A stretch of 64,000 nt of DNA from the human T2T-CHM13v2.0 reference genome, Homo sapiens: positions 9,344,001 through 9,408,000 of the forward strand of contig CP068257.2 of the NCBI GenBank assembly GCA_009914755.4, in the 5' to 3' direction. A program made the position numbers and the translations under genes. This document shows positions 30,301 through 64,000 of this stretch, piece by piece; the stretch's first letter is position 1, and each line of letters starts with the position of its first letter. The notes below the pieces were generated by a model that was not told the origin of the DNA, did not search any database, and saw nothing but the letters and a program-made list of their open reading frames with translations.

Positions 30301-33300
30301 CTCCTTGAGAGTAATGTGGTGTGGTGGAAGAAAGATTTGCTGAGTGTTTGGAAGCTTACGTTTTAGCTTGGCCTCCAATATTTCCTCATAGTAAATCTCT
30401 AAAGCCCTTTGAATTCTTTGAATTCAATTTCCTCTGTGGCAAAATGGAGCTAGTAATGCAACCTCATGCAAACAACAGAGACTCAGATGAGAGAACTGAT
30501 ATGAAGACATTAATACAGCTGCAAAACATTATATAAATGCAAGGTATTATAATTACTAGTTCTGGTTCAATACAAGGCACTCCATGCATGTGGAAAATAA
30601 CTACCTATGGCCAAAAGGCGCATCATGAGTGTCTCCTCCTGCCACGGCTCCCCAGGTCTTCCGTCATCCCATTTCATTCCTAGAGGCAACCACTGTTCCT
30701 GGTGAGTGCTAAGGACCTTCTGGAAATAGCGACACAGCAAGAGATTTTGCTAAGTATGTTTAATAGACATAGGGCCCACTTCCCAGGAGAATACCTTTTA
30801 ATTTTAGTAGGACACAGTTTTCTCAAGATTTGCTCAAGATTTAAGGAATCGTACTTGCTCAAGATTTAAGGAATACCACTTAGGAATTTTTTTGGTTAAA
30901 ATAGAAAAGAGTAGGATCTGTATGCTGTTAGCTTGCTGAACCAGCCATTTCTCAGATGTGGGGTGAAATTCATGGAGTACCACCGAAGGGGTGGAAATAA
31001 CACAAGGAGCATGAGGTATCAGCCACATAGCTGCCTTCACTACCCAAAAGGTAGCATTTCTTTTCAAAGCTGTTTCTCCCCTTTCTCGTTTGTAGATCAC
31101 TGGGTGACAGCTCTGACAGAAACGAATAGCAGGTGGGATGACATGCGTTCGTGGGATTTAGGTTATAGTTTGGCTGTAACATATTGCTGTGTCTCTTTTT
31201 CCAGACATGCCTTCATTTCGTAGGCTCAACACCTCTTTTCAACGTAATGATTAGATTCAAGGCCTGCATTTCAGTCAAGACGTAGTCACGAGTCACTGTG
31301 TTCTTATTGTCACAGCTGGGGCTTCAAGCCCACATCAGCTCTTCCAGAAGATCAAGGGAGTCAGGCCACCCAGGAGCAGAGGAGAGGATGTCCCTCAAGA
31401 ATGAGACAGGAAATGCAGAGGAAATGGGACACCACCTGTCCTGGAAGACAAGGCCAGTCACGGTCTCGTAGCACTCATTCTAGGCAATCCACCCACCCAT
31501 GAGGGGAAACGTGGGGAAGAAGAAAGCTTCCCTGCCTGAGACACGTATGGAAGCCAAGAGCTCCTGGGTCATGATACCTGCCCAATTAAGCAGAAACAGG
31601 TTTGGAGACAGAAACGATCATGACACGGACCTCCAGGAAGTGTCTCCTTGACGGACTGGGAAGTCATCTTTGTTGAAGGCATTCGGCCAGAGTGAAACGC
31701 ATCCAGGCCCCTGAGAAATAGGGGAGGCAGAGCCAGAGGGAGGAGAGAGCAGAGGCCAGAGCACAGGCAGGATACAGCACTGTGCCACGGCCACGGGTGT
31801 AAGGGGTGGGGTTCCAAAAGGGTGGCTTGTCCAGAGAGGCCAGCGTTCCAGTGACAGGGATTGTTGCCATCTTCCATTCCCGGTTTCCTCTTGCTGACTG
31901 TATCGTGGAGTGGCTTCATTTCTCAGAGAAGAGCCGTGAAGAGATACAAGCGTCTTCTCTAGCGTGGATCCGCTGCTCTCCTGTGGGACAAAGAGTTCCT
32001 CTGGGGCTCTTGTCCTCCGCTGCAGTATGTTCATCTTGATCCTAGAAAAGAGGCTGCACAGGATGGGGATGAGATTTCACTTGCTCCGGGAGCGACGCGT
32101 CTTCTCACGTGGGCCAGGCTTTCACACACCCAAAGCGGATCCGCCGCGGCAAAAATGATTGACAGCCGGCTTCATGACCCAGGCAGAGAAGCAGAAAGAG
32201 GCTCGCCAAAGACAGGCCACCATGCGACAAACCACTTTGTGCCGCACAGGGCACATTCGGCCAAAGACACACATGCACACGGGCATACACACACAAATCC
32301 ATAGAGAGAGGGAAAGAAACACACAGAGACTGAGAGATAGAGAGAGAAGAGAGAATGGGAGACACACAAACAGACACAAACACACACGCAGAGTCATACA
32401 ACAGAGGCATTGAAACACACACCCTCTGGCAACCCCTGAGGCTGCGGAATTCTGCTCTGGAGGAGAACGACCCTCGGGTGAGAGAGCAGCCGAGGGGCAC
32501 GCAGGCCGACCCGTCCTCGAGATCACAGACAGCGGTAAGGCTTTTGGTGAGACTCACCCCAACCAACACGGTCCGTGCAGGCCTGAGGCTGGGATCCCGT
32601 GCTGCTTCCCCCGTCTCCGCCTGGGGTTTCATCATCATGGTCGGCCCTTTGCGACTGCTGTCATCAGGAGAGGTTCCCTTCGACCCCGTGGAAAGGTGAG
32701 GCCGGAGCCTCAGAGCCTGGATGCACAAGCAGTGCCACGGAGGGCTCCTGCTCTGCCAAGCCTCGGGAACTGGTGTCTAAGACAACCGTGGGAACCACTG
32801 TGACGGGAGAAACCGCTCGCGCCTAGCGCATGCGCATTGGCTGAGCCGACTCACGCTCCACTCCTGACAGATAGGCTGCGTCCCCTTTAAATATCGCCAC
32901 CGCTGCGTGGCGGCAGCGATGCTCCTGCTGCCGCCCCGGCAGCGCCTGTGTCCTGGGTCCTGTTTCAGGCGGCGTGGGAGAGGGGGCGACGGGTGTCTGG
33001 TCCTGTCCCACGCCCAAACCCCCAGGGCTCCTGTCCTCAGGACCTGCTTCAGCCGACTTCCACCAAGGGAGGGGGAGCTTCAGGATGCCTGCTGTGTTCT
33101 CTGGACTCCCGTTGAGATCCCATTCTGGCCCCTCCGAGTGACATAGGATGGGCTCACCACATGTGGTCAGGCCGGCAGGGCCTCGCTGCAGCACACAATG
33201 ACCCCATAGGTCTCAAGGCCTAGTGTCAGAGCAAACTCATTCATCCATCAGCCCTCTGCCTCCCTCCTCCTTTGAAAGAGCAGTGGCCTGCCCCGCTTGT

Positions 33301-62200: not shown

Positions 62201-64000
62201 GCCTGGGGTTTCATCATCATGGTCGGCCCTTTGCGACTGCTGTCATTAGGAGAGGTTCCCTTCGACCCCGTGGAGAGGTGAGGCCGGAGTCTCAGAGCCT
62301 CGATACCCAAGCACTGCCACGGAGGGCTCCTGCTCTGCAAAGCCTCGGGGACTGGTGTCTAAGACAACAGTGGGAACCACTGTGACGGGAGAAACCGCTG
62401 GCGCCTCACGCATGCGCATTGGCTGAGCCGACTCACGCTCCACTCCTGACAGATAGGCTGCGTCCCCTTTAAATATCGCCATCGCCGCGCGGCGGCCGCG
62501 ATGCTCCTGCTGCCGCCCCGGCGTCGGCTGTGTCCTGGGTCCTGTTTGGGGTGGCGTGGGAGCGGGGGCCGCGGGTGTCTCGTCGTGTCACAGGCCCAAA
62601 CCCCCAGGGCTCCTGTCCTCAGGACCTACTTGAGCCGATTTCCAGCGAGGGAGGGGGAGCTTCAGGACGCCTGCTGTGTGCTCCGGACTCCCGTTGAAAT
62701 CCCATTCTGGCCCCCTCCGAGTGACATAGGATGGGCTCACCACATCTGGTCAGGCCGGCAGGGCCTCGCTGCAGCACAGAATGACCCCATAGGTCTCAAG
62801 GCCTAGTGTCAGAGCAAATTCACTCATCCATCAGCCCTCTGCCTCCCTCCTCCTTTGAAAGAGCAGTGGCCTGCCCCGCTTGTAAAAGCCCAGGGGTTCC
62901 GGAAAGCCGAACGCGCTTTACAGGACAACTGCAAAGAGGAACAGAGGCGAAATCCAGGGGGAGACCATGTGACCACGCGTGGCACTGGCCAATCCCACAG
63001 CAGTTGGTGTTAATGTGTGTCACCGGAGGCATACGGGGCGACGGCGAAACGAAGGGTGGGGTCCATGCACGTGCCGGTGGAAGGGGGAAACGGGTGACCT
63101 TTCCGTCAATGCCAAGGAAAATCAAACAACACCTGGGACCCGGAGGGTGTGGGGGACGTCTGTGCCTGACCCAAGCCACGTTTCCAAATGCCTACCAGAG
63201 GAAGAAAGATGTTTCTGCCAATTTCGCAACACCCCCAATCCTCCACCGACCTCGTAGCCCTGAAGCAACTTCGGCTGGCACAAACCCACAAAGAGTGGGA
63301 AAGAAACACACAGAGACTGAGAGACAGAGGGAGAAGAGAGAATGGGAGACACACACACAGAGACACACGCACACACACGCAGAGTCATACAGCAGAGGCA
63401 TTGAAACACACACCCCCAGGCAACCCCTGAGGCTCCGGGGTTCTGCTCTGGAGGAGAACGACCCTCGGGTGAGAGAGCAGCCCAGGGGCACGCAGGCCGA
63501 CCCGTCCTCGAGATCACAGACAGCGGAAAGGCTTTTGGCGAGACTCACCCCAACCAACACCGTCCGTGCAGGCCTGAGGCTGGGATCCCGTGCTGCTTCC
63601 CCCGTCTCCACCTGGGGTTTCATCTTCATAGTCGGCCCTTTGCGACTGCTGGCATCAGGAGAGTTTCCCTTCGAGCCCATGGAGAGGTGAGACCGGAGCC
63701 TCAGAGCCTCGATACCCAAGCACTGCCACGGAGGGATCCTGCTCTGCAAAGCCTCGGGGACTGGTTTCTAAGACAACCGTGGGAACCACTGTGACCGGAG
63801 AAACCGCTGGGGCCTCGCGCATACGCATTGGCTGAGCCGACTCACGCTCCACTCCTGACAGATAGGCTGCGTCCCCTTTAAATATTGCCACCGCCGCGCG
63901 GCGGCCGCGATGCTCCTGCTGCCGCCGCGGCGGCGGCTGTGTCCTGGGTCCTGTTTGGGGTGGCATGGGAGAGGGGACCGAGGGTGTCTCGTCCTGTCCC
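53271..64000. repeat. Higher-order repeat block, copy 2 (truncated by window end), ~99.9% identical to copy 1
   Basis: As above. It shares a private 1-bp deletion (cactggcaatccc instead of cactggccaatccc) at 41855 and 61575, and a private FAEQDPS variant at 43934..44431 and 63655..63966. Confidence 0.85.

What the first reader, a model, noticed from the sequence alone, without database searches (positions are those of the whole stretch)
32150..64000. Macrosatellite array of at least 31.8 kb with a 1.41-kb unit occupies the entire 3' half of the window
The gene-poor flank ends at about 32.1 kb. From there to the window end the sequence is at least 22.6 tandem copies of a GC/CpG-rich ~1.41-kb monomer. 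Spacings between monomer starts are 1407-1415 bp, and the array continues past the window edge. Unit size, GC content and CpG richness fit the SST1/NBL2 (MER22) macrosatellite family known from 4q28, 19q13 and the acrocentric short arms. That family assignment is recall, not alignment. Macrosatellite arrays vary in copy number between individuals, are epigenetically regulated, and are often mis-assembled in references.
Basis: partly seen in the sequence, partly recalled or inferred. Interest (0 to 1): 0.6.

Follow-up and report, generated by a model that had tools for sequence, protein, structure and literature searches.

The report
SST1/NBL2 macrosatellite array, acrocentric type
The right half of the window is a tandem array of the well-known primate SST1 (NBL2) 1.4-kb macrosatellite, the short form found near the centromeres of human acrocentric chromosomes; it is real and medically relevant, but already described.

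Summary
From 32,293 to the window end there are 22.5 head-to-tail copies of a 1,407-1,415 bp unit, all on the + strand. They are 92-100% alike, with GC 60% and CpG o/e 0.62 against 41% and 0.23 in the flank.

Published SST1/NBL2 primer pairs hit the monomers and give exactly the published 317-bp and 219-bp products. Primers for the 2.4-2.5 kb chr4/19 form and the chr7/chr9 copies do not hit. Long-form SST1 copies recovered from public contigs carry about 1.0 kb more per unit than these monomers. This is therefore the short subfamily-1 (NBL2) form, the kind that human chromosomes 13, 14 and 21 carry, and not the 4q28/19q13 form.

Three details are added:
- SST1-homologous DNA starts at 31,344, because the array edge keeps the ~0.95 kb long-form-only segment.
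- The array is a 14-monomer, 19,721-bp higher-order repeat whose copies differ at 7 of 10,580 bases.
- The Pfam "FAM27" family is a conceptual translation of SST1 units.

Species and chromosome could not be placed with these tools. The array belongs to an already known kind, so interest is low to moderate.

The parts
32293..64000 (+). Tandem array of 22.5 SST1 subfamily-1 (NBL2) units. In the canonical frame, where a unit starts at the GA-rich/CA tract, there are 22 full units of 1404-1415 bp plus a 721-bp partial unit cut by the window end.
   Evidence: periodicity, copies, identities; published SST1 primers give 317-bp and 219-bp products.
31344..32292 (+). Array-edge segment homologous to the ~1.0 kb that only long-form (2.4 kb) SST1 units carry between one unit's end and the next unit's start. 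It occurs once here and is absent from every other unit of the array.
   Evidence: 81-83% identical to that segment in L068, L031 and L045, and 91-93% to L010, L017 and L018. The junction contig L070 matches 31791-32292 at 99.4%.
32063..32651 (+). FAM27-like pseudo-ORF across the junction between the long-form segment and the first unit. It is broken by a TGA at 32156-32158 and a frame shift in the CA tract.
   Evidence: tblastn of gorilla FAM27D1-like protein, aa 1-107 at 32063-32383 (84%) and aa 70-201 at 32268-32651; translation shows the stop.
33223..52943 (+). First copy of the 14-monomer higher-order repeat (19,721 bp). The monomer types run B C C D E F G H G C D E E E.
   Evidence: monomers 14 apart are 98.8-100% identical, against 92-97% for most other offsets.
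52944..64000 (+). Second, incomplete copy of the higher-order repeat (types B C C D E F G H), cut by the window end.
   Evidence: 33,700-44,279 against the sequence 19,721 bp downstream shows 7 mismatches in 10,580 bp and no indels.
37062..37123 (.). Representative copy of the most conserved block of the unit: 62 bp that are invariant in all 21 full monomers, CGCATTGGCTGAGCC...CCCCTTTAAATAT. It holds a CCAAT box (inverted) and a TATA-like TTTAAATA. A GCGCATGCGC (NRF1-like) site lies just 5' and the NotI-bearing CpG cluster just 3'. I read it as the candidate core promoter. Coordinates are approximate for this copy, and the block recurs once per unit.
   Evidence: invariant runs; motifs at fixed phase: TTTAAATA in 23 units, GCGCATGCGC in 16, NotI in 19; PMC6009586 reports promoter activity of single monomers.
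38237..38249 (+). Representative PRDM9 13-mer (CCNCCNTNNCCNC) at unit phase ~793. It is present in 11 of the 23 units, always at this phase.
   Evidence: 13 matches in the window against 3.5 +/- 2.2 expected; 11 of them lie in the array at one phase.

Best explanation
This is one edge and the first ~32 kb of an SST1 macrosatellite array of the short, 1.4-kb subfamily-1 form (NBL2). That form sits in the pseudo-homologous regions of ape acrocentric short arms; in humans the large arrays are on chromosomes 13, 14 and 21.

Shown here:
- The units are SST1/NBL2 by primer-defined landmarks.
- They lack the ~1 kb that long-form units carry. One copy of that segment survives only at the array edge.
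- The array was recently enlarged in blocks of 14 units (19.7 kb) by unequal exchange or duplication.

Taken from the literature and inferred for this copy:
- The array is non-coding, heavily CpG-methylated heterochromatin in normal cells.
- Each unit carries its own CpG-rich promoter. That promoter is silent when methylated and yields the long nuclear TNBL RNA when methylation is lost in tumours.
- The GC-rich units, about half of which carry a PRDM9 motif here, are preferred sites of exchange between non-homologous acrocentrics. This exchange homogenises the arrays and, because of the chr14 inversion, occasionally produces Robertsonian chromosomes.
For: - Tandem structure.
The GA/CA start matches the NBL2 description. 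The modal unit is 1,407 bp, the length reported to approximately match the SST1 consensus unit on human chr13.
- Subfamily: the unit is 1.4 kb and not 2.4-2.5 kb. The chr4/19 and chr7/chr9 primers do not match. Diverged long-form copies (L068, L031, L045) have 1,003-1,014 bp between unit end and next unit start, where these units have none. This agrees with the ~1.0 kb deletion that defines the chr13/14/21 form. A PRDM9 13-mer sits at a fixed phase in 11 of 23 units.
- Primate origin: nine Alu copies in the flank.
- Recent block duplication: 7 differences in 10,580 bp at an offset of 19,721 bp.
- Not coding: the ORFs are under 190 aa, overlap on both strands and differ between neighbouring units.
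- Promoter: a 62-bp invariant block with CCAAT and a TATA-like motif lies next to the CpG cluster, and single monomers showed promoter activity in reporter assays.
Against: - No alignment to the Dfam/Repbase SST1 consensus or to a reference genome was possible, so the species (human or another African ape) and the chromosome are not established.
- Neighbouring units are only 92-97% alike. quotes ~99% identity for subfamily-1 monomers. The 90-99% reported for the chr21 array does fit.
- The array has at least 22.5 units, so it is not the 21-unit GRCh37/38 chr21 copy as described.
- The PRDM9 motif is missing from 12 of 23 units and from this window's majority consensus.
- The CCAAT-then-TATA order suggests + strand transcription, whereas TNBL was reported as antisense to the annotated repeat. 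Promoter direction is therefore unresolved.
- Methylation, transcription and recombination cannot be read from sequence.
Confidence: 0.88

Rival explanations
1. It is an interstitial SST1 array of the long form (subfamily 2), as at human 4q28.3 or 19q13.12.
For: It belongs to the same repeat family. The flank is Alu-bearing, non-satellite DNA with low GC.
Against: Those arrays have 2.4-2.5 kb units, and here the unit is 1,407 bp. Both chr4/19 primer pairs fail to match as pairs even with 3 mismatches. The ~1 kb long-form segment is absent from every unit except the edge.
Confidence: 0.02
2. It is the same subfamily-1 array, but from a non-human ape (chimpanzee, bonobo or gorilla), or from a human site other than 13p/14p/21p, such as 15p or an ancestral-acrocentric pericentromere.
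For: Subfamily 1 with ~1.4 kb units is found on the acrocentrics of chimpanzee, bonobo and gorilla. FISH and PCR also detect NBL2 on human chr15 and chr9. The best matches of window monomers to public contigs are 96-99.6%, never 100% over a full unit. No ORF cluster is identical to the window's (best 93%).
Against: Primers designed on human chr21 match exactly in several units, with exact product sizes. The unit length equals the human 1,407 bp. A public contig carries the same flank-to-array junction at 99.4% (L070). None of this excludes a close ape relative or a paralogous human site.
Confidence: 0.25
3. The near-perfect 19.7-kb periodicity is an assembly artefact (a falsely duplicated block) and not a true higher-order repeat.
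For: The two copies differ at only 7 of 10,580 bases and have no indels. Macrosatellites are known to be hard to assemble.
Against: The copies are not identical. The same monomer types also recur inside one block (C, E and G recur), which shows older rounds of the same process. Block-wise exchange is the expected mode of growth for such arrays. Array sizes of 21-104 kb are reported from correctly assembled human haplotypes.
Confidence: 0.07
4. The array is a cluster of protein-coding FAM27-like genes.
For: A + strand ORF in each unit passes the Pfam FAM27 threshold. It aligns over ~120 aa with NCBI proteins named FAM27D1-like (gorilla) and 'novel protein' (human).
Against: Units of this array hold only the C-terminal ~124 aa. 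The N-terminal part lies in the long-form segment, which is deleted from them. The single edge copy has an in-frame stop and a frame shift. The ORF frame and length change between neighbouring units. Part of the similarity is the translated GA/CA low-complexity tract. Tremblay et al. found no ORF in SST1 that matches a known protein.
Confidence: 0.02

Closest known systems
SST1 subfamily 1 = NBL2 macrosatellite (human 13p, 14p, 21p pseudo-homologous regions; also chimpanzee, bonobo and gorilla acrocentrics)
   Same: 1,407-bp modal unit. GA-rich/CA start. NotI-bearing CpG cluster. Published primer sites with exact product sizes. ~1 kb missing relative to long-form units. PRDM9 13-mer at a fixed position. 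GC ~60%. Array longer than 30 kb, within the reported 21-104 kb range.
   Different: Adjacent units are 92-97% alike, not ~99%; near-identity appears only at a 14-unit period. The PRDM9 motif is in 11 of 23 units only. Chromosome and species are not placed.
SST1 subfamily 2 (MER22) arrays at 4q28.3 and 19q13.12
   Same: The same ancestral repeat. The CpG-island region is shared. One F-primer site (GGGTGGG...GCACGT) is recognisable by eye but diverged (my reading of the sequence, not a tool result). They are also polymorphic tandem arrays.
   Different: The units there are 2.4-2.5 kb and carry the ~1 kb segment that is deleted here. The chr4/19 primers do not match. The SstI site that named the family is absent from all units here.
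D4Z4 and DXZ4 macrosatellites
   Same: GC- and CpG-rich kilobase-scale units in polymorphic tandem arrays. They are methylated heterochromatin in normal cells and are transcribed when methylation is lost.
   Different: The sequences are unrelated. D4Z4 encodes DUX4, whereas SST1 units have no conserved ORF. SST1 subfamily 1 lies on several chromosomes and mediates exchange between them.
FAM27 (Pfam PF15832; FAM27D/E genes)
   Same: The FAM27-like proteins retrieved here are colinear with the window at 32063-32651. Their aa ~78-201 match every unit.
   Different: The full ORF needs the long-form segment. The array units hold only the C-terminal part, and the edge copy is disrupted.

Membership tests
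SST1 / NBL2 (family level) | Sequence homology to the SST1/NBL2 unit | tested here: met
   Published SST1 bisulfite and ChIP primer pairs (PMC6924650, Table S3) match on the + strand. They give exactly 317 bp in 17 units (primers at <=1 mismatch) and 219 bp in 22 units (<=3 mismatches). No alignment to the Dfam/Repbase consensus was possible.
SST1 / NBL2 (family level) | Unit begins with a GA-rich tract and a CA dinucleotide repeat of variable length | tested here: met
   Searches show the tract. The CA-tract indels account for most of the 1407-1415 bp length variation. The description is in PMC6009586.
SST1 / NBL2 (family level) | CpG-dense internal region containing a NotI site (27-28 CpGs in 317 bp) | tested here: met
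   The in-silico products hold 22-27 CpGs. NotI is present in 19 of 23 units, at a fixed phase.
SST1 subfamily 1 (NBL2, acrocentric form) | ~1.4 kb unit caused by a ~1.0 kb deletion relative to other SST1 units | tested here: met
   The unit is 1,407 bp. Long-form copies in L068, L031 and L045 carry 1,003-1,014 extra bp between unit end and next unit start. That these contigs are subfamily 2 or 3 is inferred from their 78-85% identity and 2.4-kb period.
SST1 subfamily 1 (NBL2, acrocentric form) | Predicted PRDM9 binding 13-mer CCNCCNTNNCCNC in the unit | tested here: inconclusive
   The motif is present at one fixed phase in 11 of 23 units: 13 matches in the window against 3.5 expected. It is absent from the other 12 units and from the majority consensus of this window.
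SST1 subfamily 1 (NBL2, acrocentric form) | Very high identity among monomers (~99%) | tested here: inconclusive
   The mean pairwise identity is 95.3% (range 92-100%). It reaches 99.8% only at a 14-unit offset. This matches the 90-99% reported for the chr21 array, not the ~99%.
SST1 subfamily 1 (NBL2, acrocentric form) | Location in the pseudo-homologous region of an acrocentric short arm (human 13p/14p/21p) | not testable with these tools
   No reference genome could be searched. Indirect support only: the chr7- and chr9-specific reverse primers are absent.
SST1 subfamily 1 (NBL2, acrocentric form) | Dense CpG methylation in normal cells; TNBL transcription on demethylation | not testable with these tools
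   These are properties of chromatin and RNA. Literature only.
SST1 subfamily 2 (4q28.3 / 19q13.12) | 2.4-2.5 kb unit | tested here: not met
   The unit is 1,407-1,415 bp. The defining size is given.
SST1 subfamily 2 (4q28.3 / 19q13.12) | Matches to the chr4/19 probe and RT-PCR primers of Tremblay et al. | tested here: not met
   Neither pair matches as a pair at <=3 mismatches. There is a single stray one-primer hit.
FAM27 (Pfam PF15832) | Score above the Pfam gathering threshold | tested here: met
   35.3 bits against a cut-off of 30.8 for ORF 36419-36919. The match covers only profile positions 59-88, and the ORF is not conserved as a gene.

The most novel reading that the evidence does not exclude
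The family itself is not new. The most novel reading left open concerns three details.

(i) This subfamily-1 array is built from a 14-unit, 19.7-kb higher-order repeat with 99.93% identity between copies. If such blocks differ between chromosomes 13, 14 and 21 or between haplotypes, they could serve as markers to trace where exchanges and Robertsonian breakpoints fall inside the array.

(ii) The array edge keeps one copy of the ~1 kb segment deleted from all other units. It may be a relic of the founding long-form unit, and it would date and orient the deletion that created the acrocentric form.

(iii) The FAM27 'protein family' is simply a translation of long-form SST1 units.

None of the papers I read states any of these three points, but genome-browser annotation may already show them.
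Probability: 0.3. Interest if true: 0.3.

Novelty: already known. Interest (0 to 1): 0.25.

Why it matters
SST1 subfamily-1 arrays are reported as the common breakpoint of the human Robertsonian translocations. These occur in about 1 in 800 people and can underlie infertility and trisomies. The arrays also lose methylation in several cancers and then produce the TNBL RNA. Recognising the array correctly matters for annotation: it is not a gene cluster, it should not be confused with the 4q28/19q13 arrays, and its copy number and internal order vary between people. The higher-order structure and the relic edge segment seen here could help place breakpoints within such arrays. They are refinements of a known object and not a discovery.

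Tried and rejected
- Tandem Repeats Finder did not report the array because its longest period is 500 bp. I measured the period with k-mer spacings and BLAST instead.
- Rfam at gathering thresholds found nothing in the window.
- The supplement of the TNBL paper, which holds its primers, is not available as text. I used the primers of the same laboratory's earlier paper.
- A scan of bacterial and archaeal genomes for a 24-mer from the invariant block found nothing. The metagenome scan found 73 host-derived contigs.
- A sensitive BLAST of the unit consensus against the flank found no further SST1 unit sequence upstream of 32,265. The partial subfamily-2 monomers reported ~250 kb from the human arrays are therefore not in this window.
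- I tried to infer the species from the best matches to public contigs. This was inconclusive: 96-99.6% identity, and such contigs are collapsed consensus assemblies.
- Coding potential is rejected. The ORFs are short and unstable between units, and Pfam returns only the FAM27 match, which is explained by shared repeat origin.
- I considered and rejected the 4q28/19q13 assignment and a protein-coding reading (see the rival explanations).
- I did not annotate older transposable elements in the flank.
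Full report

Yes. The window changes character at about 32 kb. GC rises from 0.38-0.46 to 0.59-0.62, and CpG observed/expected rises from 0.23 to 0.62.

Distances between repeated 20-mers peak sharply at 1,407 bp (9,699 pairs), with smaller peaks at 1,406-1,415 and at their multiples. Tandem Repeats Finder missed the array only because its longest period is 500 bp.

- a 930-bp partial copy at 32293-33222;
- 21 complete copies of 1,407-1,415 bp;
- a final copy cut by the window end.

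All are on the + strand and 92-100% identical, and nothing matches upstream. That is 22.5 copies. The length differences sit mainly in the CA-repeat tract and one 8-bp indel.

**2. What family is it?**

RepeatMasker and Dfam are not available here, so I tested the recalled name against published landmarks.

Samuelsson et al. designed SST1 primers on the chr21 repeats (PMC6924650, Table S3). After in-silico bisulfite conversion, their F/R pair matches the + strand. It gives a 317-bp product in all 17 units where both primers match with at most one mismatch. The products hold 22-27 CpGs, and 13 of the 17 contain the NotI site. Their ChIP pair gives 219 bp in 22 units. Both sizes are exactly those published.

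Two further landmarks fit:
- The unit begins with a GA-rich stretch followed by a CA repeat of variable length, as Dumbovic et al. describe for NBL2.
- The modal unit of 1,407 bp equals the size of a de novo deletion in a human chr13 SST1 array that was reported to approximately match the SST1 consensus unit.

**3. Which form of SST1?**

The literature separates three subfamilies:
- subfamily 1 (NBL2): ~1.4 kb units that share a ~1.0 kb deletion, on the acrocentric short arms;
- subfamily 2 (MER22): 2.4-2.5 kb units, on 4q28.3, 19q13.12 and chr17;
- subfamily 3 (TTY2): on the Y chromosome.

The chr4/19 probe and RT-PCR primers of Tremblay et al. do not match here, and neither do the chr7- and chr9-specific reverse primers.

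To test the deletion directly I scanned public metagenome contigs for a 24-mer from the most conserved block. This recovered 73 host-derived contigs. Most are 1.4-kb units 90-98% identical to the window consensus. A few contigs also hold diverged copies, at 78-85% identity to the consensus. In L068, L031 and L045, 1,003-1,014 extra bases lie between the end of one unit and the start of the next, which gives a 2.4-kb period. The window's units have nothing at that point. The array is therefore the deleted, subfamily-1 form.

The PRDM9 13-mer that is said to mark this subfamily's consensus is present at one fixed phase, but only in 11 of 23 units. The window holds 13 matches against 3.5 +/- 2.2 expected.

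**4. The array edge**

The 949 bp just upstream of the first unit (31344-32292) are homologous to the long-form-only segment:
- 81-83% to L068, L031 and L045;
- 91-93% to L010, L017 and L018;
- 99.4% to contig L070, which carries the same flank-to-array junction.

SST1-derived DNA therefore begins at 31,344, not at 32,150 or 32,293. The edge unit alone keeps the segment that every other unit lacks. I read this as a relic of the long-form unit from which the deleted unit was amplified; that reading is an inference.

Other contigs show different edges. L047 and L039 break at window position 31,890 and continue into an Alu-bearing flank. L010 joins a diverged unit fragment at 31,345. These presumably come from other loci.

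**5. Internal organisation**

Pairwise identities are not uniform. The mean is 95.3%, but units 14 apart are 98.8-100% identical. From 33,700 to 44,279 the sequence differs from the sequence 19,721 bp downstream at only 7 of 10,580 positions, with no indels.

Clustering at 98% gives the type order A | B C C D E F G H G C D E E E | B C C D E F G H. The array is thus a 14-unit higher-order repeat. Recurrence of types C, E and G inside one block records older duplications. This is what unequal exchange in blocks would produce.

None of the papers I read describes this structure. The term 'higher-order' does not occur in the Robertsonian paper. I cannot exclude an assembly error, but the copies are not identical and the nested pattern argues for real history.

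**6. Function**

There is no conserved ORF. ORFs are under 190 aa, overlap on both strands and change between neighbouring units.

The longest invariant stretch among the 21 full units is 62 bp. It holds an inverted CCAAT box and TTTAAATA. A GCGCATGCGC site lies just upstream and the NotI-bearing CpG cluster just downstream. This fits the report that single NBL2 monomers drive a luciferase reporter.

The motif order suggests + strand initiation. The TNBL RNA, however, was reported as antisense to the annotated repeat, and that orientation matches the window's + strand as judged by the forward primers. The direction is therefore unresolved.

The rest of the mechanism comes from the literature and is inferred for this copy:
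- ~78% CpG methylation in normal cells;
- loss of methylation in colorectal and other cancers, with a switch from H3K9me3 to H3K27me3;
- TNBL aggregates at the nucleolar periphery;
- exchange between chromosomes 13, 14 and 21 at the array, giving Robertsonian chromosomes.

**7. Side observations**

The + strand ORF 36419-36919, whose counterpart recurs in every unit, passes the Pfam FAM27 threshold (35.3 bits against 30.8). A protein search returned about 190 clusters. Nearly all are unnamed ORFs called on short metagenome contigs. Two carry names: 'FAM27D1-like [Gorilla gorilla gorilla]' and 'novel protein [Homo sapiens]'. These align over residues 31-151 of the ORF, starting exactly at the canonical unit start.

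The gorilla protein's N-terminal ~77 residues map to 32063-32292, inside the long-form segment at the edge. There the reading frame is broken by a TGA at 32156-32158. The FAM27 family is therefore a conceptual translation of long-form SST1 units. No paper in the library holds both names.

Variants among units show about as many transversions as transitions (112 against 90), and only 33 of 202 are CpG transitions. This is unusual for methylated human DNA. It is in line with the reduced C>T share reported for acrocentric short arms.

**8. What is not settled**

Species and chromosome are open. Subfamily 1 also occupies chimpanzee, bonobo and gorilla acrocentrics. Matches to public contigs reach only 96-99.6%. 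The array has more units than the 21 described for the GRCh37/38 chr21 copy.

**9. Verdict**

This is a well-described element, so novelty is 'already known' and interest is low to moderate.

Noticed in passing
window 36419-36919 (+) and its counterpart in every unit; window 32063-32651: The unit ORF passes the Pfam FAM27 threshold and aligns over ~120 aa with NCBI 'FAM27D1-like' (gorilla) and 'novel protein' (human). Their N-termini map to the long-form segment at the array edge, where a TGA at 32156-32158 breaks the frame. FAM27 appears to be a conceptual translation of long-form SST1 units. No paper in the library mentions both names.
   Followed up: partly
window 33223-62805 (21 full units): Differences among units have a transition/transversion ratio of about 0.8 (90 against 112). 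Only 33 of 202 variant alleles are CpG transitions, which is odd for DNA reported to be heavily methylated. It may reflect the unusual mutation spectrum reported for acrocentric short arms, or gene conversion.
   Followed up: no
L001-L073 (metagenome contigs); P0001-P0120: SST1 units are frequent host-DNA contaminants of public metagenome assemblies. A single 24-mer recovered 73 contigs, many of them ~1.4-1.5 kb collapsed units. About 190 protein clusters in the large protein collection match the unit ORF, and nearly all are unnamed ORFs called on short metagenome contigs.
   Followed up: partly
L047 1-1362, L039 1-1260, L010 2615-3714, L070 1-503: Public contigs show at least three kinds of array edge. 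L070 is the window type (99.4%). L047 and L039 have an edge truncated at window position 31,890 and joined to an Alu-bearing flank. L010 has a diverged unit fragment abutting position 31,345. These presumably come from different chromosomes or loci.
   Followed up: partly
window 22428-22885: A 16-bp minisatellite (AGGGTTGGTGTAGGAA, about 29 copies, 85% matches) gives a strong local G-over-C skew (0.31 in the 22-24 kb bin). An Alu lies immediately upstream at 21959-22245.
   Followed up: no
window 11994-12184 and 20268-20388: Two short tandem duplications in the flank: a 63-bp unit in 3 copies (94% matches) and a 56-bp unit in 2.1 copies.
   Followed up: no
window 32293-64000: No SstI/SacI site (GAGCTC) occurs anywhere in the array, although the family is named after an SstI site in the 2.5-kb long form. 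The flank has nine such sites.
   Followed up: no
   Followed up: partly
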